From IMG/VR virus record IMGVR_UViG_3300017776_000012, positions 1-60,954 of that record: a stretch of 60,954 nt of DNA; one strand, 5' to 3'. Within the stretch, counting starts at the first letter, position 1. Every line of letters begins with the position of its first letter. The translations under genes and the position numbers were made by a program. The notes beneath the pieces were generated by a model, which had not been told where the DNA came from, did not search any database, and saw nothing but the letters and a program-made list of their open reading frames with translations. Origin of the DNA: a virus (taxonomy: Duplodnaviria > Caudoviricetes). Shown here in pieces: positions 1-57,233 of the stretch.

Positions 1-123
1 AGTTTTTTTAGTATAAAGGTACTGACGAATATCTGCAGTGCCTTCAAACTGATGTCCTCCAGAAGCATTGCTTCTAACAACAGCTGGAGCCTCGGCAGAT
101 CGGTCTATTTTACTTTTTAATAC
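1..123. repeat. Terminal direct repeat, left copy (circular assembly overlap)
   Basis: 1-123 is identical to 60832-60954 and falls in frame inside the giant CDS. Confidence 0.95.
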
Positions 124-3100
124 AGAAAAGAATTCTCTTAACTCATTACCCATTCCATCAAAGGAAGAGATTCTTGACTTATACTTATTTAATCCTTCAT
201 CTGTAAGCATTCCCATAAATTCAACATTTAAAGTGGTTTCTTCATCCAACATTGATTTATGTAACGAACCCCCCTCGCTAAAGTACCCCTCCTTGTTGAG
301 GGCATCTAATCGGGCTTTGTCAATTAAAGGAGTCTCTAACTCGGATAACTTTACAAGATGATCATAAATAACAGAAGGCTGTTTGACAATAGAAGCTTTA
401 CGAATGTCCTCAACAGGCAGGATACCTGCAGCAACTAAAGTATTAGTGTCTAAAAGTCTTGACCCTTCCGGATCTTCAATAGAAGAAAGCATTTTACGTT
501 CAGTCAGCTTACCCAATGATCCGGCCCAATTGTCATAAGAAGAACCGCTATCGCTCATCATTTCTGCTCTATCTAATTTTAATTTAAGAGGAACAGGTCC
601 AGACATGTTAATAGTATGACCTTGAAGCATTCCAGACCTATAGCTTAAGTCTTGAACATACTCTGAATTAAGTTTCAGTTCTTCAGCCATCTCTTCTAAG
701 ATAGATCCTACTTCTTTCATTTTAGGATCTTCACTTTCTTTCATTGCTTTGATTTCAGATCTAGCTGAATCACCAGCACGCCCTGAGATAAGACTTTTAC
801 CTGCTAATTGCATAACATCGTCTAAGTCTCTCGATCGTTGCTCAGATCCCATAGAGTTTTCACCAAGTATTCTTCCAGATTTTCCTAATCGGCTATCATA
901 CTTTACAGTTCTAAATAAAGCTGCTCTTAACTTATCTCGATGAAAAGCCATTCTTACATTCAAGTCAGCATCTATGTTTTCTCCAATCTGAGAGAAAGTA
1001 GATAACTTGCTGCCATTGAAAGTACTTTCACTTGATAGAGAGTTATTATCGAATAGCTCAGCTATCATTTGAACAAGCATATACTTTGCATCCCCTGAGG
1101 TAAGGCTTACCTTAGAGTTAATAGTAGCCTCTGTATTAGATCCAGCCAGTGCTAGAGAGTCAATACCACCTTTAAGCTTTTGACCAATTGTTAGTTTTTG
1201 AGCCTTGGATACATAATTGCTATTTGTTGCGGCATCATACAACTCTTCCATACTATAAGTTTTTCCGCTAAGATCAGTATAATCTCCCTTTCTCATATAA
1301 GGAAGCACATGCTTTGCTAAGAATGCAATAGCCAGCTTAGGATCATCATCCACTAATTTTTGGAAATCCACTCTACCATTTGTAATTGTTTTTTGAATTC
1401 TTAGTTCAACATTATTACTAATCGCAGAGAGGGGCATAACTTCTGGCCTATCGTACTCACCGGGCTTAAGGCCTTCGCCAATGCTATTCTCTAATTCTAA
1501 AATTGCCTCATCAAGCTCTTTTACCTCTACACTATCCTTTGATTGACCAAATTCATAGATAAGAGCATCTCGTTCTTTTTTATACGCTTGAATTTGAGCC
1601 AACTTGCTTCCTGTACCCGTATTAAATTGAATGCTACCCTTACGATCCCCTAGATCGCGTAATGGCATTTCGGCCTTACCTAGAAGAACATCAGTCATGC
1701 TGTCTATTTGATTTCTATAGGAAGGATCTAAATCTAAAAATACTTTTCTAATATGCAAAATTTTAGCATATGAGAAGTTAATCATCTTCTGAAGGATGTT
1801 CTTAATAGCAGAACCAGAACCCGATACAGCTTTATCAGCATCTCTATACGCTGCTTCCATTGTTACTCGGTCTTTAAAGGTTCTTGCTTGCATATTATAA
1901 GAGAACAAAGCAGCAACAAACTCATCAGGATTCTCTAAGTAAAACTCAATCTGCCTTTTAGTCTTTCCATCTAATACGCCATTATTCATGGCTAAGACTA
2001 AACGCTTTACAAGCTCGGGAGCTTCTGGGTTATTAAGCATACTATTGGTCATATGCCATTCTGGAGATCCGTGATCATAAAGTCTAGCTTGAGCAGCATG
2101 AGCAATCTCATGAAGAATAACATCAACAGCTGTTAATTCTCTACCCAACCTACCTTTAAGAAGATGCAATGAAATGCCTGTCTTAGACGTATTGATAAAT
2201 CCAGCAGGGCTCCGTCCACCAAAGTTAGGTGCATCCAAACCTTGCTCTTTTGCGAGTTCAATGGCTTTTTGTTTAATGTTACTTGTTTCAAAGAAATCTA
2301 AGTTTTCAAGAAGATTCCCATCCATCTGAGCAAGAACAGCTCTAAGCATTTTAAGTTCTCTAACTGTAAGAGTACCGCTCTGCACTAAGGTTTCTAATTG
2401 CTTATCAATAGCCTCATGAGCTTCACTAGGCTGACCATTCTTATCTTTAATATGATTTCTAAAATTAGTCTTATTCATAAAGTACTCAGCATCACCCGGA
2501 GTACCATCTTCTTTATCGGGATACTCTCCCTTGTACAGCGGCCTATCGGTTTTAATGCCTGTATTAACATCTTGTTCGCTTCTAAGCATGATCTGCCTAG
2601 CAATCTGGACACCCTCATCAATTCTTTTCTTATGATCCTTTTGACGAGGAGTTCCGCCATCCTTGATGTTACCGGGCTCTCGGGCAGCCCGTAGCTCAGG
2701 AGATCCCGGCCTTCCCGGCTCATAATTTAACCATGCTTCATATAATTTTTGATAATCTACATTAGATAATTCTTCACCGTTTAAAATCTTAGTCTGCAGA
2801 TCAGGATCCTCTTGAAGCATCCTCAGTGCAACTGGAGCGTACCCTTGACGAGTTACACCATCACTAACAGCGATATCAATACCATGCTGCAGAATCTTTT
2901 GACTTGCTACGATTTCTTGAGCTGCTGCAAGAACTTTGTCAGTCGCCTTAATGCCATAAGCCGAAGCATATTCAGGATTGTTTAAAATCCTCATGTTAAT
3001 AAACTTAGGATTAATAAAGACAAGGCCTGCTAATCTTTTAGCATCTTTAATCTCAGCATCTGAAAGACCTCCAATCTCTTGAAGCTTCTCTATACTATTA

Positions 3101-6100
3101 CGACCAAAAATTTGCTCGCCTTCTCGGATTTCAGCCTCTTTGGCAACTATAGCTTTTCTAATTCTCTTAAAGTCATCAGCAGTAATATATTGCTTTTTAA
3201 TATCGGCTTTAATAGTTGAGGAGCGACCGCCCAAAATAGCACCTAAAGCTAGTGGTTCAATATCATCTAATCCACTAAGCATTTTTATGTCATCTAAACT
3301 CTTGACACCCAATACTTCTCTTAGCTCTTTTAAACCTACATATTCTACAGGCTCTCCGTCTTGCTTAACGCTAATGATGTATGTAGTGTCTTTGCCTTCT
3401 TTAAGGTTTAACCTGTCTTCTCCTGTAGGATCAAACATTTGACGATCTAACGTATTTAATCGCGAAGCGCTGACTTGATAAGGACTGATAAGATTTAAAT
3501 CTTCTACCCCTAATAGATCCTTTGCTGCAATCTCTTTTTGATCTAGGGTGGACATAATAACTCTATCTCTAAAGCTTTCGTCTTCCCACATTTTCTTTAA
3601 GTCTAAGTAGCGTGTCTGATGGAATGAGGATCGAGACACAACTCCGGGTTCTGCGTTTCTCTCTAAGAAGCCTAAGATTAATTGATTTTCATTATCAAGA
3701 TTTGTAGCAAACTCTCTAGTCTCATTTAAATGACTATCCATCTTAGCGTGACGAGCCTGCACTCTCTTTACATTATTATTTGCTAATGCAGAAGTAAAGA
3801 GCATATCGCCCACGTATCTATTAGAAGAAATCTGAAGAACATGTCTAGCCTGATTGGCACTAGCAACCCGTCGAGTCTGATGCCCAATGATCCTGCCTGA
3901 CATGATCTCTAATCCATTCATGGTAAATCTTACATTCTTATCAGCATTTGGAATCTCAAGATCAGAATGAACAGCTTCATGTAATCGCATGGCTTGATCT
4001 GCATTTAAAGTAAGCTCAATTAATCCATCAGTAATTTTAATCTTCTGATCTGGATACAACTCTGACATATGATTTTGTACAACTTTTCTAAGAACGGTAG
4101 CATCCTTAGCGTGAGTAATTGCAACCACAAAAGCCTCATTAGCGTCTAGGTTTTCAATATCAACATATTCACCATTTTCAGCTCTATACCCAACTGCAAA
4201 CCCTTCTTCAGGAGTGGCAAATCCCTTAACATTAAGTAACCCCCCTGCCTCAATGCGTTCACCTTGTTTCTCCTTTTTAGTAGGATCTTTAACAATAACT
4301 CTATTGTCCGAAGTTTTAAGTAAGAGAGCTCCTGTTTCTGGATCTCTGACATAGCCTATATCTTCTCCTCTAGTTGGAGCTGGCGCTGAGAATTGGGATG
4401 ATGTATCTAACTTATTGCCCTGTAAAGAACCTTGTTCGTCTACCAAGCCAACATTAGACCTACGCCGTTCGTCTTCAGATACAGACAATAAGGCTTCTCT
4501 TAGTGTGAGACGATTGCCTTGTTCGTCTCTTACTTTAAAGGTTCTGATATTCTGATAAGGATCGACAGAATTACTGTCATACGGATTATCTGCAGTGGTT
4601 TCAAAGTCCTCAACTCTTTGGTCTACAACCTTTTGCCATTTTTCTTCTAAAGCTGCAATACCTTTTGTTCTTCTAATCTTGGCTTCACTCTGAGTAATCT
4701 TGCTATCTTTAACTAGTCCGTCAAGAATTTGATCAAACTTCTTAACTTCCTCGTTAAACTTAATAACATTATTAACCCAAACCTGATGACCATAGATTAA
4801 ATCCCATCTTGGTTCTGTTTTATCGACAACTCTTTCAACAGTTCTTTCAATAGTTTTACCAGTAGGAATTTCTTCATCTACGAATTTACCAGTTCCCGCA
4901 CGGCTCTTAGCTCTTTCAGCTAACAGATAATCTAATAGAGGTTCTTTCTTTCCTCTTTTAACTTTAGCAGGAATCGTAATACCTAAGGCTTCTGCCATTT
5001 CAGTTAATTTAGTTTTAGTATATTTTCTATTACCTAAATAAGTTTCTTTAGGAAGATCTAATGTTTCTGCTTTTTCAAGATTGTTTCTTGCATCCTCTTG
5101 AGGAACCTCTCTTCGGACAGAAATCATTTCAGGCTCACTGATAGTTTCAGTAACAGTTTGTTCTCCACCTAATAAATCATCTAAGCCATACTTACGGGCA
5201 TGCTTAGTAAGAATACTTTGAACAATAATATCTGTTTGTTCAGGACTAGATTGAACACCGAGTGTTTCACTTCTACTTAGAGCTTCCATACTAATATCAA
5301 CATCAGCTAAGAATTCTTCATCCGTAAACTCAACCCGATTTCTTTCATCAATATCAAAAAGTACTCCATTCTCTTGGAGGTTTGTATCAATAGTAGTTGA
5401 ATCTCTTTCTGCCAAAAGCTTTCTCTGGACAACAGCTTTCTCGCCATCTGTTCCAGTTGCAAGCTCTTGAGTATAGCCCATAGTCTTAACTTGATGAACT
5501 TCCCTGAGTGCAGGAACACCTAATACATTATCAATATGCTGTGTGGGGTGAATAGCTCTAAAGCCAAGGCCACCGCCCATAGTTCTAGGAGTTTGAGGAG
5601 TAAGCTCCATCAATTTATTTTCAGAATTATTTTGTAATTCTCGTTCTCTTAATCTTTGCTCGATCTCAGGATTTTCTAAATCATCTAATTTTAAATTACC
5701 ATCCTCATCGTACTGCGAGCTCCAAGGATTACCAAATCTTTTACGATACTCTGAATCAGTAGTATCAACATCCTGTTCTTTAATTCTGTTAGACGCTGCT
5801 TCAATGTCATCACTTTGAGCTCTCCACTCTCTAAATGCCTGCTCTTTGGTCATAGGAGGAGTCTGAACAAGAGTACCATCCGCTGTTTTCTGCAACGGTG
5901 CATCAAACTCAGGAGAGATTGTAATAAGAGCATTCTTAAGAGCAAGCCTTCTGATCCTAATTTCTTCTAACTTAGTAGCAGCTGCAATGATATCATCTAC
6001 TGAAGCATCTGGAGAAAGAACACGTTGGCCTTTCTTAGCAAGCTGCTGATTAATCTTACGCCACTCTTCTTGAAGTTGGGTTCTATCTTTAGCCAGTTCT

Positions 6101-9100
6101 TTAATGCGATTAGCAATCTGCTCCCGCTTGGTCATATTACCCATATATTTAATATCGTAAATACCTCCAGCAAAAGCTTTACCCTGATCTACATGCTTTG
6201 CATACCAGTCTGAATGAGACAGTGCTCCTTCAGCATCAGGGTTGTTAGCATAAAGCTCTACAAGCTCAAGATCTTCTCTGGCTTCAGCCTTGCTAGTCTT
6301 AAAGGTTGCATCAGATTCTTCTACAAACTGAACGGGATCCAGAATAACTCTTCTACTTTTCTCACCCTTATGGTCCATCTCCTTAGTATGAGGAGCCACA
6401 AACCGGGTACGCCAGTCCATTAAGTTATTGATATAGATAGCATCATCTGTATTCTCTAAAGCTCTTGAAGGACTCATGCCACCAGCATCTTGACCAGTCA
6501 TCTTAAGAATATGCTTAACACTGGGGTCATCTCTAGCTACAGTAAATGCAGTTCTATTTAAAGCCTGTGTTGTACGATCAAAGAAGGTAAACTTAGATCC
6601 CGTAATAAGACTTTCAAGCTCTTTAATCTTAGGACCATCTTTACTTTCTCTTGCTTTCTGTAATTCATCAATAACAGTAAGCTCTTGCATAAACCTAAGA
6701 CGAGCGATATCCATTGCATCGTCCATAGTTTCGGGGCTTTTGGCTTTCTGTAATTTTTCGCCTACACCCGGAATAGTGCCAACTAGATCAAACTCTTTTT
6801 TACGGAGCATAGATGTTGCAAAAGCTTCAATTTGTAAAGCTCTAAAAATCACATCTACTTCTTTTGCCATAGTAGCTTTATTTTTATTGGCTAGCTTGGC
6901 AAGCTTAGTAGCGTGATCCAGCATAACCTTAATGCCATCAGGGGAATTCCACTCCAGCTTATCATCCAAGATTGCTTTAGGAAGTAAACTATTTCTTAAA
7001 CCATCAGGATCTAAAACAGCTTTCATTCTTCCTGCAGAATCTGGAATACCAGTAGCCTTTTCAACTAATCCCATTAAGGCTCTATCTTTACCGCCAAGCA
7101 TAGCAGTAGTTAATTCTTCAACAACTTGATCGTAGGTAACACCTTCTTTTTTAGCCTGAGCTAACATTGCATTTTTGTACATTGCATTATCAGGATCATC
7201 AAAGAAAGATCTAATTGAGTTTTTAACTGCTTTTCTCTTAGCGTTATAAGGAACAATCATTAAGGGCTTTTTAGCAAAGCTTCGTCCAGCTTTACTCCCT
7301 CTTACCCAGAATGGACGCTCAGTATCAGCATTATTCATTGCATATAAAGCTCGGCGTACACCTATGCTCATGCTGCTATCTCCTGCCTTATCGGGCAGCT
7401 CTGCACCAATCTCATAAGTTAAGTTCTGATAAAAGTCGATATCAGTTGAACCATCTGCTTCCACTAGATCCTTAACTAATTGTAATGCTCCTTCAGCAAC
7501 TTCAGGCTTATCAGAATTTAAAGCTTCAAATAATTGGACTCTTCGTCGGAAAGCGATACTTTCGGCAACACCGTGCTTAGAGCCATTGGTAGATCCATCA
7601 GCCTGTGCAATAAGTCGAGAGCCTTTACCCTTAGAACCCTTAGCTGCCTTAGCTACATCGTCTCCTCTTTCAAAGGCTCTTAAGATCTCAGGAGTCATTT
7701 CGGGATACAACCAAGCAGACGCATCTAAGATTGCATGGGCAATGCTATAGTTATTGTCTGGGTCTGCAAGAGGGATAGCAACAGGGAACCCACCGCTAGG
7801 ATCTGCTTCAGCCCAAGGGTTATCTCTGCCTTCTTCAATGTCATACCTGAAGTATGCTCTTGTGTTGATATCTTCCATGCGAATGCCAAACTGTCCGGGC
7901 AAGGCTTTAAGATCATCATGAATAAAGCTATAATGAGTTGGAGGTAAATCCAACATTTGTTCTACAGTTCGATCAAGGTAAAACTCAATACTCTCTACTC
8001 TATCTAAATCTGTTCTTAGTGGAGGAGGAATCTGATCAGCATGGATAGTTAAGGAAGCTCTATCTTGGGCTGTAGACATATTTTGAGTGAGATTACCATC
8101 TTGAATAAACTTAATAACGTCCTCTTCAGAAGGACCCTTAGGATCATCAAAGTCTAGTTCATTGATTCTACGGACTTTATCCTCATAGATAATCTGATCT
8201 AAAATCTTAGCAATTTGCTTATCAGTTCCGGGTTGAACCGCAGAGAAATCTTTTACTTCTTCACTATTTTTAAACTTAATGACATTAAAAGAATTAGTGT
8301 CTTCATCAAGCTCAATAACCTCAGTATTGTATCGCTTACTGCCATCTACATTATCTCTAAACAAAGAGCGAAGGGCAGCTGCCATTGTATCTGGAGTTTG
8401 GAAATCTAACTCACCATTGCCAAAGATTGCAAGTGCTTTAACGCCTTTTGCTTTTAACTCTGGGCTTATTGGCAGATAGGGAATTACTTCAGCTTCAATA
8501 TACTCAATTGCATTCTTAGTATTTAATAAAGAGCTTCTTGAGAGGTTATCTCCCTTACGGCTACTGAGAGTAATTAAACTTTCTACAAGTTTATTGACAT
8601 AATCTTCTTCATTTGCAGCACCTCTAACTTCAGTACCAGCTTTATTCTTAGCTTCCTGAGCTTCTTGTTTTCTTAACTCAGTCAATAACTGAGATTGCTC
8701 AAGACGTACTTGTTGCGGAGTCTTGCTTGCAGCTGTAGCAGCAGAACTTTGCTCTATTGCCATGTCACGTTGCAGTCCAGCTCTTTTGGCTCTTAACTTG
8801 TCTAATGCTTCCACTTCTTTATTTAGAAGATCTTTAACAGTTTCAAGAGTTTCGCCTTCTTGTAAAGGTTCTTTACCAGAAGCTCTTTTAGTTAAAGATT
8901 CTATTCTATCTTTAGATTTAGCAACACTAGCATTAATTATGGTATACCTTGCAGTGTACTCCTCATTCAGATCTTCTGCTAACTGACGAGTTTTCACATA
9001 TTGAATACCTAAGTCTCTTCTTCGTTCTAAGATCTGAAGAACTTGTTCTAAATTAAAAGTATCAAATTCTCTAGTCGTTCCTTGAGATGCTAACGCTTGT

Positions 9101-12100
9101 CCAAAGACAGCATCAATATCAATGTCAGCTAAAACACTTATGTTGTCATCAATGGCAGATTTAAACAAGGACATGACAGCAGCTCTTGTGCCAGTGCCTT
9201 CATTACCTAAAGATGCATGTTTAGTTTCAGACATCATAACATTCTTAAGTTTTAAGATGGCAGACTCAAGAGCTTGAATATCTTCGTTAATATCATAATC
9301 TAATCTGCTAGCAGCTGCTCTTGCATTTCTAGTTTCAAGGTCTGCTTTAGCATCTGATCTAACTCTAGGTGCTACAAATCTAGACGGATCTCCCATCTTA
9401 ACGTTATCAAGCATTGCTAAAAGAACAGTATTCGCTTGCTTAGCCTGACTCTTCCCTAATTCAAAATCTGCTTCAACGCTTGCTGTATCGTATAAAGTTC
9501 TACGACCAGAAATTGAATTCTGAATATCACGATCATTAACATTTCTTTCGTTAATAACGTCTTGTGCCTCTAAGAGAAGTTGACGCATATTAGCTTCATC
9601 TAATGTCTTTAACTGTAAAAGAGGGTGACTGCTAGGAAGGTATCTTCTAAACAGCTGTCTAGCAAGAGCCTGTGAAACCGTACCATTTGATTTTTCATAG
9701 GCATCTAAGATAGCTTTATTGGTTAAAACTTCAATACTATATTTATCGTAGTTTTTATTAAGCTCTACTTCACGTTGCTCTTCAATGATTCCGCTTTGAT
9801 CTCTAAAGCCAGCACTTGTAGGAATGTCTCCCTGATTATCAGGATCGATGTTTAAATCGCCTGCTTCATTCTGGGCAGCTAACTTTCTAAGTTTTTCTAA
9901 TCGTTCTTTTAAGTATTTGGTTTTCTGATCAGTAATATCTTTTGATTTTCCCCTTTTAGTTTTTCTCTTCTCAGCATTACCAAACTTAGTTTCAACATCA
10001 CTTAACTCTTCTTGGAACTCAATTAAAGTATCTAAAATTTCTCTAGTATCTTTATCCTTTGAATCGACTAATTTCAAGAGCTGCTTAAAAGCTTTTTCTT
10101 TTTTCTTAGGATCAGAGCTCTTAAGATCTTTAACAAGCTTTCTTCTTGCTCCTCTTTTATTTTTACCTATTCTATTGATAACCTTAGGATCAAAAGAAAT
10201 GCCATTAGCTTCTGCAAATGCTTTAATATCAGCAAAGCTGCTTTTAGCTGTAGCAGTTTGTTTCTCAATGCCCACATTCTTTGCCGCAATAAGTTCTTCT
10301 AAACGAGATCTTTGTTCGGCAGTTAAAGGAACTTTACGATTAAGCTCTAACTCTTTAATTGTTTCAGCTGTAAACTTAAAGTTTAAAGCTGCTTCAAAGT
10401 TATTAAGAATGAGCTGAAGCCGTCTTTTTCCTTCAGGAGTCTTTGTTAATTCTTCAGCCGTATTACCTACAGTTAAAAAATCAATCATTCTATTTTTAAT
10501 TCCACCAATAACAGCCTCATCTTCATCAAGCTTAAGTGTAATCTCTGATACTTCTGCATCTACGCCTTCTTGCCTCGTAATTGCTTCAGCAATTCTAGCT
10601 TCAATCAACTCTTGTACTTTAGCACGTCTTTCCTCAGGATCTGGATACGACTTAATGATAGTTTGAAGCTCTGCGTCAACTCCCAATGCTTCTTCTTCTG
10701 CAGCTAAAAGACCGTATTGCTTTTCTTTAAATCTTTTAATATCTTCGTCAGAGTAGAAAGTACCGTCTTTACCCCTCACTTTACTTTGAAACTCTGGGTC
10801 ATCTATAAGCATAGCTCTAAGTCCTTGAGGACCAAGCCCTGAGAAAGTTCCATCTTTTATAGAACTTGCATACTTCTTTTCAATTGATTCTACAGCTCTC
10901 CCTAGGGCCTCTTCCATATCCCCCTCATAGATGGTATTATTCATACCTTCTGTAAATCCAAACCTACTTCTAAGTTCATCTACAGTTGTAACTTGACCAT
11001 CAGTTAAGAGTGATACCATGACATTTGCTCTGGCTCTTTGTCTGGCTCCGCTAAGAAGCAGTTTTGTTCCAACATCTTCTCCTTTAAGCCATCCCATGAA
11101 TCCAACGTTTGATGCCTCATCGAAGTTGTTGTTGGCCTCTGGAGTATCTCCATATACTCTAGCCCAAAGTTCTTTTTGATTTTTAAGTTTATCTGCTGCT
11201 TTAATTCCTTTATTTCCAAATAGCGACTGCAAGTAAAACTCTTTAATCTCTACGTCTTTATTCCCCTTAATGTATTTTTCAACACCAAGGCTAACGCTAG
11301 AACCCATTCCCTTAAATGCAGCACCTAATCCCAAAGAAGCAACAGCACTGGTAAGCGTAGCTGCTGCCCAGTTATCCATAAAGTTAATATCTTCACCTTC
11401 ATTATAAAGGGTAGATAGGATAGATTTTCTTTCTGAATTGCTATAGGCATTTGCAAGGAGTCCTCCAGCAGCTCCATCGATACCCTGAGCACCAGACCAC
11501 ACTAAAGCTTTAGTGGCTCGACTCCAAGTAGTCTGGGTCTCCATTAAAACTTCAGCTAGATTGCCAGTCATGCTTAAGGATCCCGGCCTGACTTTTAACA
11601 AGAGTTCTGTAGCTCTTCCTAAACCTTTGAATTTTTTTGGATCAAGCTTTTCAAGTTGCTTAATCTTTGCTAACTTCTCTTTAACCTTTCTTGACTTATT
11701 AGCAATCTTTCCTGCACGCCGAGCCCACTTAGCGGTAAATACACTCCAGTAAGCTGTAGTTGCTGTAGCACCGATTGGAGCAGCTGCACCTGCTGTAGCT
11801 GTTGTACCTAAGATAGACCCACCTGTTACAATAGCACCTCCTAGTAACTCAATTCCCATTTCTGGAGCCATATCAGGATCTTGGACCAGCATATCTTTAA
11901 TGCTAGTAAGCATGCCTATTTCTGTGTTCCGACTTAACTGCATTTGCTCTAAGACCAACTGATGCTCATAAAGGCGTCTAGATACAGCTTCCATTCCTTT
12001 AACAAAAGCACCTGACTGGCTTTCAGAGAACATCAATGAGTTTTCTTTTGTAACTCCAGCTTGATCTAGCATTTGTTTTAAAACAGGATCTGTTGTTAAA

Positions 12101-12858
12101 GTTCCCCAAAGCCAATCATGGGTATATTCTCCGTCTACAGGAGCGTTTGAGTCTGAGGCAATAATATCTCTTGCATCTTGAACTCTTAACTTTGCTCTTC
12201 CAGTAACATCTGTAGTAGGGTCAAGACCTTTTAAACCCTCGATAAATTGAACACCATACGGATCCGCACCATAAGTAGTATCTAAATCTGCTCTAAGTGA
12301 TTCAAGTTTAGCCTGAGTCTCTTTGCTCATAGCACTCGATAAAAGACCAAGACCAATCAGAGCTTGAGCATCATTAACATTAGCTCTAATATTATCAACA
12401 GCGCCAAAAGCACCTGTTCTAGCTCCTAGCTCCTGTACGCCTGCAGCCTTAAAAGTTGCACCGCCTGTTTGGATGTCCATTGAGATATCGCGTAAACGTT
12501 CTTCTCTTTGCGCTTCTGATTTTTTAAAGGTTGCTTCAGTTAAGCCTTGGTATCCCGGACCAGTAACGTCTGTAATATCCTGTCGGATGCCGCTGTATTC
12601 CAAGCTGCTCGGCAATCCGCTATCTCTTAAAATTTCTTTAAACTCTTGACGCTCTTCTTCCTCTTTAATAAGACTTTCTCTAACAGCATTTTCTTGAGCA
12701 GCAATTGGAGAAAAGGATGATCGATAATACTCTGAAAGAATATTGTCTGCTTCTTGTTGGGCCTCTGTTGGCTGCTCTGCAGGCTCTTGAGTAGGCTCTT
12801 GAATAAAGGGATTATTGAAATTTCTAAGGACATTAATTGGACGATCTTGGTCTACCAT
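1..12858 (-). CDS. Giant internal virion/ejection protein (gp16 slot) with embedded single-subunit RNA polymerase and zincin domains; 5' part of a ~4,983 aa ORF continuing at 60831-58738
   Basis: ATG at 12858 with GAGGA RBS. No stop in the large stretches translated by hand, and the track shows no long minus ORF here, as expected for a frame running off the edge. Motifs: QADGSTNGSKH (A), RSFAKKPLMIVPY (B), LEWNSPDG, HAKDATVLR...KITDG (C candidate), HEIAH...EFVA. Confidence 0.88.
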   Translation of the reverse strand, partial: MVDQDRPINVLRNFNNPFIQEPTQEPAEQPTEAQQEADNILSEYYRSSFSPIAAQENAVRESLIKEEEERQEFKEILRDSGLPSSLEYSGIRQDITDVTGPGYQGLTEATFKKSEAQREERLRDISMDIQTGGATFKAAGVQELGARTGAFGAVDNIRANVNDAQALIGLGLLSSAMSKETQAKLESLRADLDTTYGADPYGVQFIEGLKGLDPTTDVTGRAKLRVQDARDIIASDSNAPVDGEYTHDWLWGTLTTDPVLKQMLDQAGVTKENSLMFSESQSGAFVKGMEAVSRRLYEHQLVLEQMQLSRNTEIGMLTSIKDMLVQDPDMAPEMGIELLGGAIVTGGSILGTTATAGAAAPIGATATTAYWSVFTAKWARRAGKIANKSRKVKEKLAKIKQLEKLDPKKFKGLGRATELLLKVRPGSLSMTGNLAEVLMETQTTWSRATKALVWSGAQGIDGAAGGLLANAYSNSERKSILSTLYNEGEDINFMDNWAAATLTSAVASLGLGAAFKGMGSSVSLGVEKYIKGNKDVEIKEFYLQSLFGNKGIKAADKLKNQKELWARVYGDTPEANNNFDEASNVGFMGWLKGEDVGTKLLLSGARQRARANVMVSLLTDGQVTTVDELRSRFGFTEGMNNTIYEGDMEEALGRAVESIEKKYASSIKDGTFSGLGPQGLRAMLIDDPEFQSKVRGKDGTFYSDEDIKRFKEKQYGLLAAEEEALGVDAELQTIIKSYPDPEERRAKVQELIEARIAEAITRQEGVDAEVSEITLKLDEDEAVIGGIKNRMIDFLTVGNTAEELTKTPEGKRRLQLILNNFEAALNFKFTAETIKELELNRKVPLTAEQRSRLEELIAAKNVGIEKQTATAKSSFADIKAFAEANGISFDPKVINRIGKNKRGARRKLVKDLKSSDPKKKEKAFKQLLKLVDSKDKDTREILDTLIEFQEELSDVETKFGNAEKRKTKRGKSKDITDQKTKYLKERLEKLRKLAAQNEAGDLNIDPDNQGDIPTSAGFRDQSGIIEEQREVELNKNYDKYSIEVLTNKAILDAYEKSNGTVSQALARQLFRRYLPSSHPLLQLKTLDEANMRQLLLEAQDVINERNVNDRDIQNSISGRRTLYDTASVEADFELGKSQAKQANTVLLAMLDNVKMGDPSRFVAPRVRSDAKADLETRNARAAASRLDYDINEDIQALESAILKLKNVMMSETKHASLGNEGTGTRAAVMSLFKSAIDDNISVLADIDIDAVFGQALASQGTTREFDTFNLEQVLQILERRRDLGIQYVKTRQLAEDLNEEYTARYTIINASVAKSKDRIESLTKRASGKEPLQEGETLETVKDLLNKEVEALDKLRAKRAGLQRDMAIEQSSAATAASKTPQQVRLEQSQLLTELRKQEAQEAKNKAGTEVRGAANEEDYVNKLVESLITLSSRKGDNLSRSSLLNTKNAIEYIEAEVIPYLPISPELKAKGVKALAIFGNGELDFQTPDTMAAALRSLFRDNVDGSKRYNTEVIELDEDTNSFNVIKFKNSEEVKDFSAVQPGTDKQIAKILDQIIYEDKVRRINELDFDDPKGPSEEDVIKFIQDGNLTQNMSTAQDRASLTIHADQIPPPLRTDLDRVESIEFYLDRTVEQMLDLPPTHYSFIHDDLKALPGQFGIRMEDINTRAYFRYDIEEGRDNPWAEADPSGGFPVAIPLADPDNNYSIAHAILDASAWLYPEMTPEILRAFERGDDVAKAAKGSKGKGSRLIAQADGSTNGSKHGVAESIAFRRRVQLFEALNSDKPEVAEGALQLVKDLVEADGSTDIDFYQNLTYEIGAELPDKAGDSSMSIGVRRALYAMNNADTERPFWVRGSKAGRSFAKKPLMIVPYNAKRKAVKNSIRSFFDDPDNAMYKNAMLAQAKKEGVTYDQVVEELTTAMLGGKDRALMGLVEKATGIPDSAGRMKAVLDPDGLRNSLLPKAILDDKLEWNSPDGIKVMLDHATKLAKLANKNKATMAKEVDVIFRALQIEAFATSMLRKKEFDLVGTIPGVGEKLQKAKSPETMDDAMDIARLRFMQELTVIDELQKARESKDGPKIKELESLITGSKFTFFDRTTQALNRTAFTVARDDPSVKHILKMTGQDAGGMSPSRALENTDDAIYINNLMDWRTRFVAPHTKEMDHKGEKSRRVILDPVQFVEESDATFKTSKAEAREDLELVELYANNPDAEGALSHSDWYAKHVDQGKAFAGGIYDIKYMGNMTKREQIANRIKELAKDRTQLQEEWRKINQQLAKKGQRVLSPDASVDDIIAAATKLEEIRIRRLALKNALITISPEFDAPLQKTADGTLVQTPPMTKEQAFREWRAQSDDIEAASNRIKEQDVDTTDSEYRKRFGNPWSSQYDEDGNLKLDDLENPEIEQRLRERELQNNSENKLMELTPQTPRTMGGGLGFRAIHPTQHIDNVLGVPALREVHQVKTMGYTQELATGTDGEKAVVQRKLLAERDSTTIDTNLQENGVLFDIDERNRVEFTDEEFLADVDISMEALSRSETLGVQSSPEQTDIIVQSILTKHARKYGLDDLLGGEQTVTETISEPEMISVRREVPQEDARNNLEKAETLDLPKETYLGNRKYTKTKLTEMAEALGITIPAKVKRGKKEPLLDYLLAERAKSRAGTGKFVDEEIPTGKTIERTVERVVDKTEPRWDLIYGHQVWVNNVIKFNEEVKKFDQILDGLVKDSKITQSEAKIRRTKGIAALEEKWQKVVDQRVEDFETTADNPYDSNSVDPYQNIRTFKVRDEQGNRLTLREALLSVSEDERRRSNVGLVDEQGSLQGNKLDTSSQFSAPAPTRGEDIGYVRDPETGALLLKTSDNRVIVKDPTKKEKQGERIEAGGLLNVKGFATPEEGFAVGYRAENGEYVDIENLDANEAFVVAITHAKDATVLRKVVQNHMSELYPDQKIKITDGLIELTLNADQAMRLHEAVHSDLEIPNADKNVRFTMNGLEIMSGRIIGHQTRRVASANQARHVLQISSNRYVGDMLFTSALANNNVKRVQARHAKMDSHLNETREFATNLDNENQLILGFLERNAEPGVVSRSSFHQTRYLDLKKMWEDESFRDRVIMSTLDQKEIAAKDLLGVEDLNLISPYQVSASRLNTLDRQMFDPTGEDRLNLKEGKDTTYIISVKQDGEPVEYVGLKELREVLGVKSLDDIKMLSGLDDIEPLALGAILGGRSSTIKADIKKQYITADDFKRIRKAIVAKEAEIREGEQIFGRNSIEKLQEIGGLSDAEIKDAKRLAGLVFINPKFINMRILNNPEYASAYGIKATDKVLAAAQEIVASQKILQHGIDIAVSDGVTRQGYAPVALRMLQEDPDLQTKILNGEELSNVDYQKLYEAWLNYEPGRPGSPELRAAREPGNIKDGGTPRQKDHKKRIDEGVQIARQIMLRSEQDVNTGIKTDRPLYKGEYPDKEDGTPGDAEYFMNKTNFRNHIKDKNGQPSEAHEAIDKQLETLVQSGTLTVRELKMLRAVLAQMDGNLLENLDFFETSNIKQKAIELAKEQGLDAPNFGGRSPAGFINTSKTGISLHLLKGRLGRELTAVDVILHEIAHAAQARLYDHGSPEWHMTNSMLNNPEAPELVKRLVLAMNNGVLDGKTKRQIEFYLENPDEFVAALFSYNMQARTFKDRVTMEAAYRDADKAVSGSGSAIKNILQKMINFSYAKILHIRKVFLDLDPSYRNQIDSMTDVLLGKAEMPLRDLGDRKGSIQFNTGTGSKLAQIQAYKKERDALIYEFGQSKDSVEVKELDEAILELENSIGEGLKPGEYDRPEVMPLSAISNNVELRIQKTITNGRVDFQKLVDDDPKLAIAFLAKHVLPYMRKGDYTDLSGKTYSMEELYDAATNSNYVSKAQKLTIGQKLKGGIDSLALAGSNTEATINSKVSLTSGDAKYMLVQMIAELFDNNSLSSESTFNGSKLSTFSQIGENIDADLNVRMAFHRDKLRAALFRTVKYDSRLGKSGRILGENSMGSEQRSRDLDDVMQLAGKSLISGRAGDSARSEIKAMKESEDPKMKEVGSILEEMAEELKLNSEYVQDLSYRSGMLQGHTINMSGPVPLKLKLDRAEMMSDSGSSYDNWAGSLGKLTERKMLSSIEDPEGSRLLDTNTLVAAGILPVEDIRKASIVKQPSVIYDHLVKLSELETPLIDKARLDALNKEGYFSEGGSLHKSMLDEETTLNVEFMGMLTDEGLNKYKSRISSFDGMGNELREFFSVLKSKIDRSAEAPAVVRSNASGGHQFEGTADIRQYLYTKKT

Positions 12859-12868
12859 GCTCAGTTCC

Positions 12869-13180
12869 TCACTGTTGGTTTCTTAAGTTCTGTAATAAAA
12901 ACATGTTATTCATGTTTGCAATTTCTTGAGGCTTCTGACCTCTATCTAATAACAGATTATAATCCCGCTCATTTAATTGACCGCGACTAGAGTCTTGTTT
13001 GACATTAACATTAGCAGGAGCTGGATGCCTTTTGATTGTAGGCCTAGATCCTTCTTCTGCAATGAGCTCTACTAGTTCATCTTGCGAGTTCACTTGCATA
13101 GGCTCAATGGTAATTTTTTTACCGTCTAATGGATTTAACCATGTATTTGCGCGTGGTGTTGGTAATAAAAAAGTTCTCAT
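12869..13180 (-). CDS. Hypothetical protein in ejection-protein operon
   Basis: 103 aa ORF; ATGA overlap with the upstream gene; its stop abuts the RBS of the giant gene. Confidence 0.7.
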   Translation of the reverse strand: MRTFLLPTPRANTWLNPLDGKKITIEPMQVNSQDELVELIAEEGSRPTIKRHPAPANVNVKQDSSRGQLNERDYNLLLDRGQKPQEIANMNNMFLLQNLRNQQ

Positions 13181-16100
13181 TCTTCTTCCTCTAGGCTCCT
13201 ATTTAATCGATCAAGGTCTGCTTGGGTGTATGAACTGCCCAGCGTGGCACTCTTCTTTCTAGCCGGAGAAGAAAAGTCTACGTTACCTTTATTAATGGAT
13301 TCAATTCCCCATTGACTTACTGGGATAAACTCACCTTGTAAGGTTTTAGGGAAGTAAAAAGGAAAAGTATCTTGAATGCCTTCGTTAACGCTAGTTGTTG
13401 TTATTGAAAATGTTGTTACGTTTTGTTCAGATTGATTAACATCAAATGAATAGTTATCTGGATTTTTCCACAAACTATATCGTAATGATGGAGTACCAGA
13501 TACTCCTGCGGTAGTTCTATCTAACATGAAGTACATATTTTTCACAGATAGACCTCTTGCCATCTCTACAAGCGCCTGATCAATTTCTTTGGGACTAAAA
13601 AACTCTGGATCGGCACGCTTTCTTTTATAGATTTTAAATTCATCTAAAATATCAAGTTCTTTTGCTAAGGTTTCGTCTAAGTTGTCTTTTAAAAACATCT
13701 CAATACGAAGTGCTCTCTCTTGTCTAATTTCTGCCTCAGGAAAAACTAGAGATAACCCATGCTCTAACACAGTTGTTGTCCGTCTTACTTTGTTTTGAGA
13801 TATAGCATCAGCAATAGCACCTATGTTAGCCTGCACAAGGCGTCTGCCATAGCGAGAGTCACCTACGCCTCTACGTTGATTTCCCGTAAGGTTTGCTTTA
13901 GGGTCGGCATACTGAGCATCTAAAGCCTGCATCGTTCGATGAGCGTGCCTCAATGTACCTGCATCAGAAGCACTGTCTCGTTTAATTATTAGAGGTGTTT
14001 TATTCTCTTGATTTATAACTATAAACGTACCATTTTCTTCATTAAAAGTAGTAGATAAAGCAGCAATATGTGAATCCTGAAGGATTTGATAATAAAGCCT
14101 AGTTTCTCCGTCCACATTTTGATCTGCTTGCAGTCCAGCTAGCTCATCTTTGTTTCTACCTACATTAATCCGTATCTGTCTCTGAAGCTCTCTTTGATAC
14201 TCTTGATTCACTTCAGAGTTAACGTTTGTAAGCTCTGTAATAACTCTACGATTAATACCTTTGTCTTCAAAATGCTTTACAAGACCAGAGAACATGGACT
14301 TATCTGTTCCCTCAAATGTTTTTGTAAATTGTCTTCTAAGCTGTGCCGCGTCTGATCCTTTTGAATCAATCATTCCTAGATAGGTCCTAGCCTTTGCAAC
14401 ACCACCCTCTTGAAGTGTAGAGGGATTTTGGAGAAATGCCATACTTGCCTGCATAAAGGGATTATTATAATTATCTATATCCTGAGATAAACTCATAATA
14501 TTACTTTCTAAGGTTCCCGGAGCAGCTAGTATTAGCTTAGCAGTGACATCAACTTGTGCAGCTAAAGATGTATTTCCTGCTACTTGGCCATTAAGAAAAG
14601 TGCTTCCTTCTATGTGATTTCTATTATCCTGTTCAATAGTGATAGAAGCATCAGCTCCACTTCTGACCGCTACAGCCTCTTCTGTTATACTAAAAGTATT
14701 TCTAACCATTTGTTCATACTCGCCGAAAAAACTATAAATTTCTTCTTCATTCCCAAGCTGTCTATTTAACTGCACTAAAGCGGAGTTAATAAATACTCTA
14801 GCCTCATTGGTAGTAAATACAGCGTTATCTTGTAAAGTAGAACCATCTTTATTAAACGTAATATCTTTATTCTCGTTGCTAGCAAAACTTGCTAAGATAT
14901 CACGAAGGGCTGAAGACTGAGCATCTGTGTCCATTAATATATTGACACCGTTTTGAAGTCCGGTACTCTCACTAGCCAGTCTAGCGTTTTCTAACTCATA
15001 AACATAAGCAGCTGCGGCAATATGTCCTCTTAAGTGTGTAATTATTTCACCTTTAGTTTCAGCGATTTTTGTGATTTTATCGCTCTCGCTTAATCCTTCG
15101 GTTTGATTTATACCATTTACAGTTGTATTATATTCTTCCTTTAAAACCTTAAACAATTGAGGATCCATGCGGAGAACACCAGCAAATTCAGTTTGAACAT
15201 CATCAAACCATTGAGGACTAAGATCCCCTCCGGGGGCAACAAAGCGATTGTTAAATCCTCTTAATACCGCAATAGAGGGCCTTCCTGAATCCTTAGCTAC
15301 TCCTACAGGAGTAACATCTGTTTCTTTAGTATCTAAATTTTGATTTAAAAGCTTTGCCATATCTCCGGGCTCTGCAGTAGAACTTCCAGACATACCTCGC
15401 AGTAAACTCTCATCGTGGCTAGTTAATACTTTTACAATAGACTGCTCTAAAGGATTCAGCAAAGGCATTTCGGCCCTGATAGCTAACACAGTACCTCTCC
15501 TGTTTGGTTCTGTTTGAAGGGTATTAGCTCTAGCTTCAGTAACAAGAGCCATCTCTCTGTCAACTAAATTATCCCAAGTTTTCTTTGCTGCTTCGTAAGA
15601 ATCAAACTTAAAAATGCCTTCAATCTTAGAAGGATCATCACCAATTTGAATCTCATTTAAATCAACCTTAGAGCCATCTCGATTTGAAATGCCAGGATAA
15701 ACAAAGTATTCTCCTTCAGATTCTCCAATCTGCCAGTCATGGACCACAGGCTGACGTTCATTAGGATTAGACGTACTTTGCCATAGGTTAACTCCTACGT
15801 CTACTTTTTCACCCAATGCATCTTTAACTGAGTATTGCCTATAAAGAAAGCTGCCGTTGCTATCAGAGGCAAAAAGACCATTAACTGTATCCATCTCTTC
15901 AGGAAAATAATTGGTTAAGAGAGGAGCAATATTCTCTAAAAAGTATCCCTGAAGAGCTTCAGGATTACCTCTAAATTTGCCTTCAGATGCGTTTAATAAT
16001 GATTCTACTGTAGTCAATACAGGAGCAGCTAATTTTTTCTTAACTTCATCAACAACGCCCTGTCTAAATTCTACATACTCTGCATTAATATCACCAAGAA

Positions 16101-18467: not shown

Positions 18468-18468
18468 A

Positions 18469-18921
18469 TTAGTCTCCTAAATATGATATAATATCTTTAA
18501 TCTTATTGTCAAGCTCCTCTGTGTAACAAAAGAAATGAGGTAGCTTCATAAGCTTCTTCTTCTGCTCCAAAAAATGCTCTATAATGTCTAAATGAGTCTG
18601 CTGATTAAATCGAATCTTTTCATTTACAGTCTCCATGCTCTTTAACTGAGCTGCTTTATCTTCACGTTCAAGTATGACAAGTCGTTGTATTTTCTTCCTA
18701 AAAGGCCAAGGATCCCAGAGTTTAACGACAACATCCCTATAGTCTAGGGGCCTTATCTCCTCATCCCACGGCATTTCATAGAAGCCGTTAGGGTTGTCTT
18801 TCTTATCCACATACCAGGGGAAAGACTCACCTACTACAGGCAACCCGCTCAAATGAGCTTCGTGCATTGTAAAAGATGTACCTACTCTAGGGCCAATACC
18901 TGTCACAACTTTCATTACCAC
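18469..18921 (-). CDS. Sulfotransferase-like P-loop protein
   Basis: VVTGIGPRVGTS resembles the PAPS-binding GxxRSGTS loop; downstream DNPNGFYE motif. Confidence 0.6.
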   Translation of the reverse strand: MVMKVVTGIGPRVGTSFTMHEAHLSGLPVVGESFPWYVDKKDNPNGFYEMPWDEEIRPLDYRDVVVKLWDPWPFRKKIQRLVILEREDKAAQLKSMETVNEKIRFNQQTHLDIIEHFLEQKKKLMKLPHFFCYTEELDNKIKDIISYLGD

Positions 18922-52868: not shown

Positions 52869-52892
52869 AATTTTACAATCCTTTCGAATTTG

Positions 52893-52904
52893 CTAGTTTC
52901 TAGT
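52893..52904 (-). promoter_or_regulatory. Candidate phage promoter motif ACTAGAAACTAG
   Basis: Identical to 27031-27042; lies between a terminator and the next RBS. Confidence 0.5.
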
Positions 52905-53726: not shown

Positions 53727-53792
53727 TGTAATTCTCCATTAGAATTGATAAAAGCAGGTCAGACACACAACGTGTCCAACCACATGGATGCA

Positions 53793-57223: not shown

Positions 57224-57233
57224 TTAATTATCC

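What the first reader, a model, noticed from the sequence alone, without database searches (positions are those of the whole stretch)
1..12858. Hidden ~4,983 aa ejection protein carrying a virion RNA polymerase, in the T7 gp16 slot
Seen: one minus frame runs from ATG 12858 through base 1 and across the 123-bp overlap to the stop at 58738 (14,952 nt); the ORF track reports only its last 668 aa. Hand translation gives T7-superfamily RNAP motifs in order: motif A LIAQADGSTNGSKH (Asp at 7597-7599, ~aa 1754), DFYQ, motif B RSFAKKPLMIVPY (R/K/Y spaced like T7 R627/K631/Y639; 7284-7246), LEWNSPDG, then THAKDATVLR and KITDG. Known: N4-like phages inject a ~3,500 aa vRNAP, whereas T7 gp16 (1,318 aa) has no polymerase. 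Inference: an N4-style injected RNAP has been built into the gp14-gp15-gp16 ejectosome of a T7-like virion.
Basis: partly seen in the sequence, partly recalled or inferred. Interest (0 to 1): 0.96.

Follow-up and report, generated by a model that had tools for sequence, protein, structure and literature searches.

The report
Giant ejection protein with RNA polymerase
A marine T7-like phage encodes one unbroken 4,983-residue, cysteine-free protein among its internal-virion genes, and this protein carries a very divergent T7-type RNA polymerase module, so the phage probably injects its own polymerase as phage N4 does.

Summary
The minus-strand frame runs from ATG 12858 through base 1 and across an exact 123-bp end overlap to the stop at 58738. 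That is 14,952 nt, or 4,983 aa, with no stop. Relatives of 4,870-5,003 aa carry the same gene whole inside their contigs, so it is not a misassembly.

The middle of the protein is homologous to T7-type single-subunit RNA polymerases:
- hhalign gives probability 96%, E 1.7e-9, over motifs A and B.
- PHROG 414 matches at E 1.6e-5.
- A relative (26% identical, BLASTP 1e-28) passes Pfam PF00940.

Virion packaging and ejection are inferred, not shown. The protein has 0 Cys in 4,983 residues, as do N4 gp50 and T7 gp15/gp16. It has a conserved HExxH downstream of the polymerase, as in N4 gp50. It lies between terminase-side cysteine-free proteins and tail-fibre-like genes.

An invariant IHDD upstream of motif A and an invariant DWRTR downstream of motif B match T7 motif C and T/DxxGR better. 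The motif order is therefore non-canonical. AlphaFold models were too poor to settle the fold.

I file this as a new variant of the N4-type virion RNA polymerase, in a T7-like phage that has two further RNA polymerase genes.

The parts
1..12858 (-). Giant ORF, N-terminal 4,286 codons (start ATG 12858-12856)
   Evidence: aligned with 4 full-length homologues
58738..60831 (-). Giant ORF, C-terminal 697 codons plus stop. Bases 60832-60954 repeat bases 1-123.
6886..7635 (-). RNA polymerase block with motif A (Asp1754, nt 7597-7599), DFY (aa 1808-1810), motif B (R1859/K1863/Y1871, nt 7246-7284) and WNSPDG. Covers aa 1742-1991.
   Evidence: hhalign against the T7-like RNAP alignment gives probability 96.3, E 1.7e-9, T7 residues 525-748. 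phrog_414 E 1.6e-5. These residues are invariant in 11 of 11 sequences.
7879..8061 (-). Upstream block resembling T7 motif C (aa 1600-1660). IHDD is at aa 1646-1649 (nt 7912-7923).
   Evidence: hhalign against T7 residues 746-824 gives probability 47, E 1.9e-4. H1647-D1648 align to T7 H811-D812. 0 of 70 column shuffles reach the score. H1647 and D1648 are invariant in 11 of 11.
6328..6579 (-). Downstream block resembling the T7 T/DxxGR region (aa 2094-2177). DWRTR is at aa 2148-2152 (nt 6403-6417).
   Evidence: hhalign against T7 residues 317-448 gives probability 13.8, E 0.002. 0 of 70 shuffles reach the score. D2148, W2149, R2150 and R2152 are invariant in 11 of 11.
3907..4200 (-).
   Evidence: hhalign against T7 residues 755-876 gives probability 1.4, E 0.038. 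2 of 70 shuffles reach the score. H2916 and D2919 are invariant. D2944 is not conserved in distant relatives.
2098..2112 (-). HExxH (HEIAH, aa 3583-3587) with conserved NPDEF about 60 aa downstream
   Evidence: Nearly invariant in the family. An HExxH also follows the polymerase in 7 of 7 N4-like vRNAPs and is noted in N4 gp50 domain C1 (PMC13434306).
12869..13180 (-). 103-aa ORF directly upstream. Its ATG overlaps the stop of the 1,415-aa gene (ATGA).
   Evidence: conserved in L002 and L004. A 122-aa ORF holds the same place in L007.
13177..17424 (-). 1,415-aa protein with 0 Cys and no family match; candidate second large ejection protein
   Evidence: Counterparts of 1,399 aa in L002 and 1,002 aa in L007.
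17427..18921 (-). 346-aa (0 Cys) and 150-aa proteins; candidate small internal virion proteins
18915..20666 (-). Large terminase subunit
   Evidence: phrog_38 E 3.7e-86. Best tblastn matches are T7-like phages at under 40% identity.
56087..58379 (-). Two virion structural, lectin-like proteins (381 and 378 aa) just downstream of the giant gene
   Evidence: phrog_10356; PF13385 E 6.8e-6. Tail-fibre genes hold this place in L007.
42343..44826 (-). Conventional T7-like RNA polymerase, 827 aa
   Evidence: PF00940 E 2e-84
48633..50558 (-). Second, shorter single-subunit RNA polymerase, 641 aa
   Evidence: PF00940 E 1.4e-29

Best explanation
The 4,983-aa protein is the largest internal-virion (ejection) protein of a roughly 60.8-kb marine T7-like podophage. 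It carries a divergent T7-superfamily RNA polymerase module at about aa 1600-3000, followed by an HExxH domain and a long C-terminal part. The layout is the same as in N4 gp50: N-terminal domain, polymerase, HExxH domain, C-terminal domain.

The likely mechanism has four steps.
1. A few copies are packed in the head together with the neighbouring cysteine-free proteins (150, 346, 1,415 and 103 aa).
2. They are threaded unfolded through the tail at infection.
3. The polymerase module transcribes the first genes to enter, and may help pull the DNA in.
4. The two conventional phage RNA polymerases (641 and 827 aa) take over later genes.

What is shown: the ORF, the homology of the polymerase module, the conserved catalytic-type residues, the composition and the gene order. 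What is inferred: packaging, ejection, catalytic activity and the order of the transcription cascade.
For: ORF continuity is established.

Polymerase homology:
- phrog_414 'RNA polymerase' matches aa 1808-1980 at E 1.6e-5.
- The family profile aligns colinearly to the window's own 827-aa RNAP over motif A, DxY and motif B.
- hhalign gives probability 95-96%, E 2e-8 to 2e-9. The same test gives a bona fide N4 vRNAP family only E 6.5e-4 for that block.
- Relative P0054 scores 32.6 bits against PF00940 (cut-off 22) and P0053 scores 22.0.
- The window protein matches P0054 by BLASTP at 1e-28 over 592 columns.
- Motif A DG..NG, DFY and motif B R...K.......Y are invariant in 11 of 11 sequences that are only 21-76% identical.
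- As a lead only, the ESM Atlas nearest clusters are RNA_pol and N4 vRNAP families at 0.89-0.90.

Ejection-protein signature:
- The giant has 0 Cys in 4,983 aa, and 9 of 10 relatives also have 0 Cys. The 21 other window proteins pooled have 1.08% Cys, and the two cytoplasmic RNAPs have about 2%.
- The 1,415-aa and 346-aa neighbours also have 0 Cys.
- T7 gp15 and gp16, N4 gp50, gp51 and gp52, and 7 of 7 N4-like vRNAPs have 0 Cys.
- An HExxH follows the polymerase, as in 7 of 7 N4-like vRNAPs. The N4 C1 domain is described with this motif.
- Gene order is conserved in a close relative (L002) and a distant one (L007): terminase, small ORFs, a 1,000-1,400-aa protein, a small ORF, the giant, then tail-fibre-like genes.
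- Three weak but colinear hhalign matches to the N4 family exist: N-terminal domain, A-B block and HExxH, each E about 0.01.
Against: - The window protein itself has no Pfam hit, even at E 10.
- There is no sequence hit to solved structures, either as a single sequence or as a 3-row profile.
- tblastn of aa 1500-3099 found no match in 50,697 phage records.
- The exhaustive HMMER search reached no ordinary T7-like or N4 polymerase (8 proteins at E<=0.001 in 1.84 billion).
- Similarity to N4 gp50 is not significant (best E 0.007). Similarity to T7 gp14, gp15 and gp16 is absent.
- The second catalytic Asp is not securely placed, and the motif order differs from every described T7-type polymerase.
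- Both AlphaFold models were poor (mean pLDDT 51 and 43), with only the fingers helices confident. Foldseek found nothing at E<=0.001.
- No virion proteome, transcript or isolate exists. Zero cysteine and gene order are circumstantial.
Confidence: 0.58

Rival explanations
1. The protein is an ejected internal-virion protein, but its polymerase-like module is a catalytically dead relic. It would be kept for DNA binding or as a structural 'bead'. Early transcription would then be done by the host enzyme or by the two conventional phage polymerases.
For: The motif order is non-canonical. The window protein has no Pfam hit. The genome already has two complete RNAP genes.
Against: Motif A Asp, motif B Arg, Lys and Tyr, the IHDD His-Asp and DWRTR are invariant in 11 of 11 sequences at 21-76% identity. 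That is the pattern expected of an active site under selection. The two other RNAPs must themselves first be transcribed by something.
Confidence: 0.17
2. The protein is an active polymerase but is not packaged. It would be a giant cytoplasmic multi-domain protein, like the large polyvalent proteins of phages and plasmids, made after infection.
For: There is no direct evidence of packaging. One of the ESM Atlas nearest clusters for the HExxH region carries a large-polyvalent-protein domain in 18% of its members (a lead only).
Against: Zero cysteine in 4,983 aa contrasts with about 2% in the phage's cytoplasmic polymerases. The gene lies within the late structural gene run, between terminase-side cysteine-free proteins and fibre-like genes, in the window, L002 and L007. 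The layout is the same as in the packaged N4 gp50.
Confidence: 0.12
3. The module is packaged and active but makes DNA, or only primers or a translocation motor, rather than acting as an early-gene transcriptase. That would make it a family-A-type polymerase used to pull in or repair the entering genome.
For: T7-type RNAPs and family A DNA polymerases share the palm and fingers. IHD[DE] resembles the HDE of family A DNA polymerases (this resemblance is recalled, not tested here).
Against: The profile match is to RNA polymerases (phrog_414, PF00940). The Tyr aligned to T7 Tyr639, which selects ribonucleotides (recalled knowledge), is invariant. The genome has its own family A DNA polymerase at 36703-38514.
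Confidence: 0.08
4. The long ORF is an artefact of circularising or misassembling the contig.
For: The ORF crosses the contig ends through a 123-bp overlap.
Against: Full-length genes of 5,003 aa lie inside two independent contigs. Four homologues have 4,870-5,003 aa. More distant ones have 4,070-4,924 aa. The end piece aligns colinearly.
Confidence: 0.02

Closest known systems
Phage N4 gp50 virion RNA polymerase (Schitoviridae), 3,500 aa
   Same: Both are giant single chains with a central single-subunit RNAP module. In both, an HExxH motif shortly follows the module, a long helical C-terminal part comes after that, and there are no cysteines (PMC13434306). Both are encoded last in a run of smaller cysteine-free virion proteins. 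In both phages the genome also encodes a further T7-like RNAP activity.
   Different: No significant sequence similarity was found. The window protein is about 1,480 aa longer. Its A-B block is much closer to T7-like RNAPs (E 1.7e-9) than N4's own block is (E 6.5e-4). N4 has the canonical order T/DxxGR, A, B, C, and this family does not. The phage has T7-type capsid, portal, nozzle and replication genes and two complete monomeric RNAPs rather than a split RNAPII.
T7 RNA polymerase and the T7-like RNAPs (Pfam PF00940)
   Same: Motif A, DxY, motif B and W..P.G are colinear with T7 residues 525-748.
   Different: The module is embedded in a 4,983-aa protein. The blocks that best match T7 motif C and T/DxxGR lie on the 'wrong' sides of A-B. 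About 900 aa separate W..P.G from the HxxD block. The window protein itself scores below Pfam detection.
T7 gp16 / internal virion protein D family
   Same: Both are the largest, cysteine-free protein of the internal-protein gene run that precedes the fibre genes. Hardies et al. report that IVP-D homologues host cytoplasm-destined domains, including the N4 vRNAP and a methylase-like domain in phage H66 gp60 (PMC4819975, passages read).
   Different: No profile similarity to gp16 was found. No lytic transglycosylase domain was found. The terminase gene lies between the nozzle gene and this run, unlike in T7.
Putative vRNAP of podophage StenR_269 and the Zobellviridae large internal proteins
   Same: These are large, cysteine-free, helical proteins in podophages that have been proposed to be virion RNAPs (PMC10747016, passages read).
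   Different: In the passages I read, that proposal rests on size, composition and secondary structure, and no polymerase motifs are named. Here motifs A and B are identified by profile comparison.

Membership tests
T7-type single-subunit RNA polymerase (PF00940) | Motif A with catalytic Asp (D-G-x-x-x-G-x-x-H) | tested here: met
   DGSTNGSKH at aa 1754-1762 aligns to T7 motif A. D1754, G1755, N1758 and G1759 are invariant in 11 of 11.
T7-type single-subunit RNA polymerase (PF00940) | Motif B, R-x3-K-x7-Y | tested here: met
   R1859, K1863 and Y1871 are invariant in 11 of 11 and align to the motif B of the T7-like enzymes.
T7-type single-subunit RNA polymerase (PF00940) | Motif C Asp downstream of motif B | tested here: inconclusive
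   KITDG lies 28 aa after an HxxD, the same spacing as in T7. However, hhalign gives E 0.038, 2 of 70 shuffles reach the score, and the Asp is absent in 4 of 4 distant relatives. The better candidate, IHDD, lies upstream of motif A (E 1.9e-4, 0 of 70 shuffles).
T7-type single-subunit RNA polymerase (PF00940) | T/DxxGR motif upstream of motif A | tested here: not met
   No conserved D..GR lies before motif A. An invariant DWRTR that aligns to T7 DWRGR lies about 290 aa after motif B.
T7-type single-subunit RNA polymerase (PF00940) | Pfam score above the gathering cut-off | tested here: not met
   The window protein has no hit at E<=10. Among relatives, P0054 scores 32.6 bits, P0053 22.0 and P0006 15.0, against a cut-off of 22.
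T7-type single-subunit RNA polymerase (PF00940) | Right-hand fold with the two Asp residues together | tested here: inconclusive
   AlphaFold mean pLDDT was 51 (window aa 1560-2110) and 43 (P0054 core), with no palm strands. Foldseek gave no match at E<=0.001.
N4-type virion RNA polymerase | Giant chain with central RNAP module, HExxH domain after it, and no cysteine | tested here: met
   the N4 domain description is in PMC13434306.
N4-type virion RNA polymerase | Sequence or profile homology to gp50 | tested here: not met
   tblastn against phages found nothing. The HMM against gp50 found nothing. The best hhalign E values are 0.007-0.014.
N4-type virion RNA polymerase | Present in virions and ejected into the cell | not testable with these tools
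   Inferred from composition and gene order only.
N4-type virion RNA polymerase | Hairpin promoters on single-stranded template before early genes | not tested
   Two copies of a CGCCC-GCAA-GGGCG hairpin were seen at 53790-53806 and 54817-54833. One is followed by a T run and could be a terminator. No test was made.
T7 gp16 / IVP-D | Profile similarity to gp16 | tested here: not met
   A sliding hhalign of the whole family alignment against T7 gp16 gave a best E of 0.25. This was against a single gp16 sequence, so sensitivity was low.
T7 gp16 / IVP-D | Largest, last gene of the internal-protein run before the fibre genes | tested here: met
   The caveat is that the terminase gene precedes the run.

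The most novel reading that the evidence does not exclude
The polymerase of this family has a rearranged active-site topology. The catalytic motif C (IHDD) lies before motif A, and the T/DxxGR element (DWRTR) lies after the fingers. This order, C-A-B-T/DxxGR, is not known for any T7-type RNA polymerase or family A polymerase. A C-A-B order is known only in some viral RNA-dependent RNA polymerases (recalled, not checked here). The enzyme would be the injected first tier of a three-polymerase transcription cascade that is independent of the host RNA polymerase, in a T7-like phage.
Probability: 0.35. Interest if true: 0.88.

Novelty: new variant of a known kind. Interest (0 to 1): 0.76.

Why it matters
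Injected virion RNA polymerases of the single-subunit type are known from N4-like phages. T7-like phages are defined by making their polymerase after infection and by relying on the host enzyme for the first genes.

A T7-like phage lineage that also packs a polymerase inside a roughly 5,000-aa ejection protein would show that this strategy arose, or was kept, outside Schitoviridae. It would give a second, very different sequence family for studying how a megadalton-scale enzyme is threaded through a podophage tail. It would add a polymerase with its own, unknown promoter type.

If the odd motif order is real, it is a natural experiment on how far the palm of this polymerase superfamily can be rewired.

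The family is rare. It has 8 clusters at 50% identity in 1.84 billion representatives. It carries no functional name in the sources I could see.

Tried and rejected
Structure prediction.
- AlphaFold2 on window aa 1560-2110 with an 11-row alignment gave mean pLDDT 51.2.
- AlphaFold2 on the compact core of relative P0054 (1,071 aa, 11 rows) gave mean pLDDT 42.7.
- Only the fingers helices were confident, so neither model can say where the Asp residues sit.
A mitochondrial RNAP at rank 4 (E 1.4) and a Vibrio phage vRNAP at rank 26 (E 2.2) are not significant.
- The VIA-align libraries were not on the machine.

Complex prediction. I sent core aa 1590-2000, aa 2085-2185, and aa 2880-3000 as partner. 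The job returned 'no answer' with score 0.00 and no controls folded. It is not used as evidence either way.

Sequence searches that found nothing:
- Solved structures, with a single sequence and with a 3-row profile.
- The family HMM against T7 RNAP, T7 gp13-16 and N4 gp50-53.
- GTDB genome contigs, scanned twice.
- IMG/VR, which gave only one close relative and one distant one.

Considered and dropped:
It is deleted in the distant relatives.
- A simple circular permutation. The block order (T7 746-824, then 525-748, then 317-448) is not a cyclic rotation of the T7 order.
- A tandem-triplication-with-loss model. It is possible, but the sliding scan gave no support for degenerate extra fingers domains.
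- The hhalign match of window aa 2968-3092 to N4 2977-3095 (E 6.5e-4). It is out of order with the other N4 matches and I left it unexplained.

Literature. Four searches (listings only) showed no paper describing this family or a permuted T7-type polymerase. I could not see supplements, and most subscription papers are not in the library, so this is not proof of absence. I did not map reads across the junction.

Full report
**Observation.** The window is a complete virus record of 60,954 bases whose first and last 123 bases are identical. On the minus strand, one frame is open from ATG 12858 to base 1 (4,286 codons). The same frame is open from the window end down to the stop at 58738. Removing one copy of the overlap gives a single ORF of 14,952 nt, or 4,983 aa, with no internal stop.

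The ORF is not an artefact. A search of 5.8 billion proteins returned four homologues of 5,003, 4,995, 4,892 and 4,870 aa at 84-54% identity. In two independent contigs (L002, L003) the 5,003-aa gene lies entirely inside the contig. The window's end piece aligns colinearly to residues 4254-5000 of P0001.

**The phage.** All large genes are on the minus strand. PHROG and Pfam identify the following:
- a T7-type portal (E 5.5e-104), scaffold and major capsid protein;
- tail tubular protein A and the nozzle (PF25675, E 3e-54);
- a large terminase subunit;
- a family A DNA polymerase, primase-helicase and exonuclease;
- a conventional 827-aa T7-like RNA polymerase (PF00940, E 2e-84);
- a second RNA polymerase of 641 aa (PF00940, E 1.4e-29).

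The terminase is less than 40% identical to any of 2,694 matching phage records. The best matches are T7-like pelagiphages, cyanophages and Ralstonia phages. This is a deep-branching T7-like lineage with a genome about 20 kb larger than usual. One relative's contig is from a Tara (TARA-labelled) scaffold.

**Is there an RNA polymerase in the giant protein?** At the level of single-sequence searches the evidence is thin:
- no Pfam hit, even at E 10;
- nothing among solved structures;
- nothing by tblastn in phage genomes;
- one PHROG hit, phrog_414 'RNA polymerase', at E 1.6e-5 for aa 1808-1980.

An exhaustive HMMER search with a profile of aa 1560-2110 found only 8 clusters in 1.84 billion representatives. 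All are giant proteins or fragments of them (4,995, 4,924, 4,546, 4,070 and 2,869 aa, plus three short pieces), and none is an ordinary polymerase.

Profile comparison is clear, however. A family profile aligns colinearly to the window's own 827-aa RNAP from motif A through DxY to motif B. hhalign of the family alignment against an alignment of 43 T7-like RNAPs plus T7 itself gives probability 96%, E 1.7e-9, for window aa 1742-1991 against T7 residues 525-748. In a sliding scan of the whole 4,983 aa, only the two windows covering this block score.

As a yardstick, the A-B block of seven genuine N4-like vRNAPs scores only E 6.5e-4 against the same T7-like alignment.

Two more distant family members found later close the chain to Pfam. 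P0054 (4,225 aa) scores 32.6 bits against PF00940 (cut-off 22) and P0053 scores 22.0. The window protein matches the P0054 core by plain BLASTP at 1e-28 over 592 columns.

In an alignment of the window protein with 10 relatives (21-76% identity), the following are invariant: D1754-G-x-x-N-G, D1808-F-Y, and R1859, K1863, P1865, M1867, Y1871. The ESM Atlas also places the fragment nearest RNA_pol and N4-vRNAP clusters, at 0.89-0.90. That is a lead only.

This block does resemble T7. The HxxD...LR aligns to T7 VHSQD...LR, and the Asp of KITDG lies 28 aa after the His, as in T7. N4 motif C reads KIFDG. But the block scores only E 0.038, and 2 of 70 column-shuffled versions do as well. The KITDG Asp is replaced by Glu in one close relative and is absent in 4 of 4 distant relatives. 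H2916 and D2919 are invariant.

Two other blocks score better:
- Upstream of motif A, aa 1600-1660 align to T7 746-824, with ...SFIHDDL... on T7 ...ALIHDSF..., so that H1647-D1648 fall on T7 H811-D812. This gives probability 47%, E 1.9e-4, and 0 of 70 shuffles reach the score. H1647 and D1648 are invariant in 11 of 11.
- Downstream of the fingers, aa 2094-2177 align to T7 317-448, with ALNRTAF on the AIN..Q.T.W element and DWRTR on T7 DWRGR. This gives E 0.002, and 0 of 70 shuffles reach the score. D2148, W2149, R2150 and R2152 are invariant in 11 of 11.

No conserved T/DxxGR lies in the canonical place before motif A.

The family's conserved elements therefore stand in this order: C-like, A, B, T/DxxGR-like, HxxD. 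That is neither the T7/N4 order nor a cyclic rotation of it. I could not settle whether this is a true rewiring of the palm, the debris of ancient tandem copies, or a coincidence of short motifs. Both AlphaFold models were poor (mean pLDDT 51 and 43), fold searches were empty, and the complex job gave no answer.

**Is it a virion, ejected protein?** There is no direct evidence, but three independent features point that way.

1. Composition. The giant has no cysteine in 4,983 residues, and 9 of 10 relatives also have none (P0054 has 4 in 4,225). The 1,415-aa and 346-aa neighbours have none. The 21 other proteins of the window have 1.08% Cys pooled, and its two cytoplasmic RNAPs have about 2%. 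At 1.08%, the chance of zero in 4,983 residues is about 3e-24 (my arithmetic). The same signature holds for T7 gp15 and gp16, N4 gp50, gp51 and gp52, and 7 of 7 N4-like vRNAPs.

2. Layout. An HExxH at aa 3583-3587, nearly invariant in the family with a conserved acidic motif about 60 aa later, follows the polymerase. An HExxH also follows the polymerase domain in 7 of 7 N4-like vRNAPs. The 2026 structural paper on N4 describes it as the C1 domain of gp50, followed by a large helical C2 (PMC13434306, passages read). Three weak hhalign matches to the N4 family are colinear: N-terminal domain, A-B block and HExxH, each E about 0.01.

3. Gene order. The run is terminase, 150 aa, 346 aa, 1,415 aa, 103 aa, the giant, then two lectin-like virion proteins. 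The same run is found in the close relative L002. In the distant relative L007, tail-fibre genes flank it. N4 has the comparable run gp52 (150 aa), gp51 (644 aa) and gp50. T7 has gp13-14-15-16 before the fibre gene. 'The gp16 slot' is thus a fair analogy, with two caveats: the terminase gene sits between the nozzle gene and this run, and no similarity to gp16 itself was detectable.

**Comparison with what is known.** The concept is in print. [quoted passage not shown] Bellis et al. treat N4 gp50 as the third ejection protein, analogous to T7 gp16 (PMC13434306, abstract and passages).

Four things are new here:
- The carrier is a T7-like phage with its own conventional RNAP, and a second one besides.
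- The protein is about 1,480 aa longer than N4 gp50 and unrelated to it at the sequence level.
- Its polymerase block is nearer to T7-like enzymes than N4's is.
- The motif order is unusual.

Four literature searches (listings only) turned up no description of this family. The sources give no functional name to any member I looked up.

**Verdict.** I file it as a new variant of the N4-type virion RNA polymerase. It fails the sequence-membership test for N4 gp50 and for T7 gp16. It meets the motif A and B tests for the T7-type polymerase superfamily but not the canonical-order test.

Noticed in passing
window 12869-13180 (-): An unlisted 103-aa, cysteine-free ORF fills the apparent gap before the giant gene. 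Its ATG overlaps the stop of the 1,415-aa gene (ATGA). The last ~50 nt before the giant's ATG are identical in the window, L002 and L004, although the proteins are only 49-87% identical. This suggests a conserved translation or transcription signal.
   Followed up: partly
window 42343-44826 and 48633-50558 (-): Together with the giant protein, the genome carries three single-subunit RNAP-type genes. The 641-aa one matches PF00940 from profile position 37 and lacks the N-terminal domain hit of the 827-aa one.
   Followed up: partly
window 53790-53806 and 54817-54833: There are two copies of a GC-rich hairpin, CGCCC-GCAA-GGGCG, upstream of small ORFs in the presumed early region. The copy at 54817-54833 is followed by CTTTTAT on the coding strand and could be a terminator. 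The other copy has no T run.
   Followed up: partly
window 50862-50876, 51754-51768, 52887-52901: A 15-nt motif, AATTCTCTAGTTTCT (87-100% identical), occurs three times in the early region. It is a candidate promoter for one of the phage polymerases.
   Followed up: no
P0010 aa 1742-1777; P0054 aa 801-839: Two distant giant relatives carry a Rho_N (SAP-like nucleic-acid-binding) motif, at E 4.8e-7 and 6e-4. In P0010 it lies just before motif A. The window protein has no such hit.
   Followed up: no
window aa 2968-3092 of the giant (nt about 3583-3957): hhalign matches this stretch to N4 gp50 residues 2977-3095 (probability 27.5, E 6.5e-4). That is out of order with respect to the HExxH match. 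Unexplained.
   Followed up: no
homologues of the 827-aa RNAP: Several relatives at 28-34% identity lie on contigs of 56-71 kb (P0028, P0029, P0034, P0036, P0047, P0048). This hints that enlarged T7-like genomes of this kind form a wider group. I did not check whether they carry giant genes.
   Followed up: no
window 56087-57223 (-): The 378-aa protein downstream of the giant has a concanavalin-like lectin domain (PF13385, E 6.8e-6, just under the cut-off). It is probably a receptor-binding protein.
   Followed up: no
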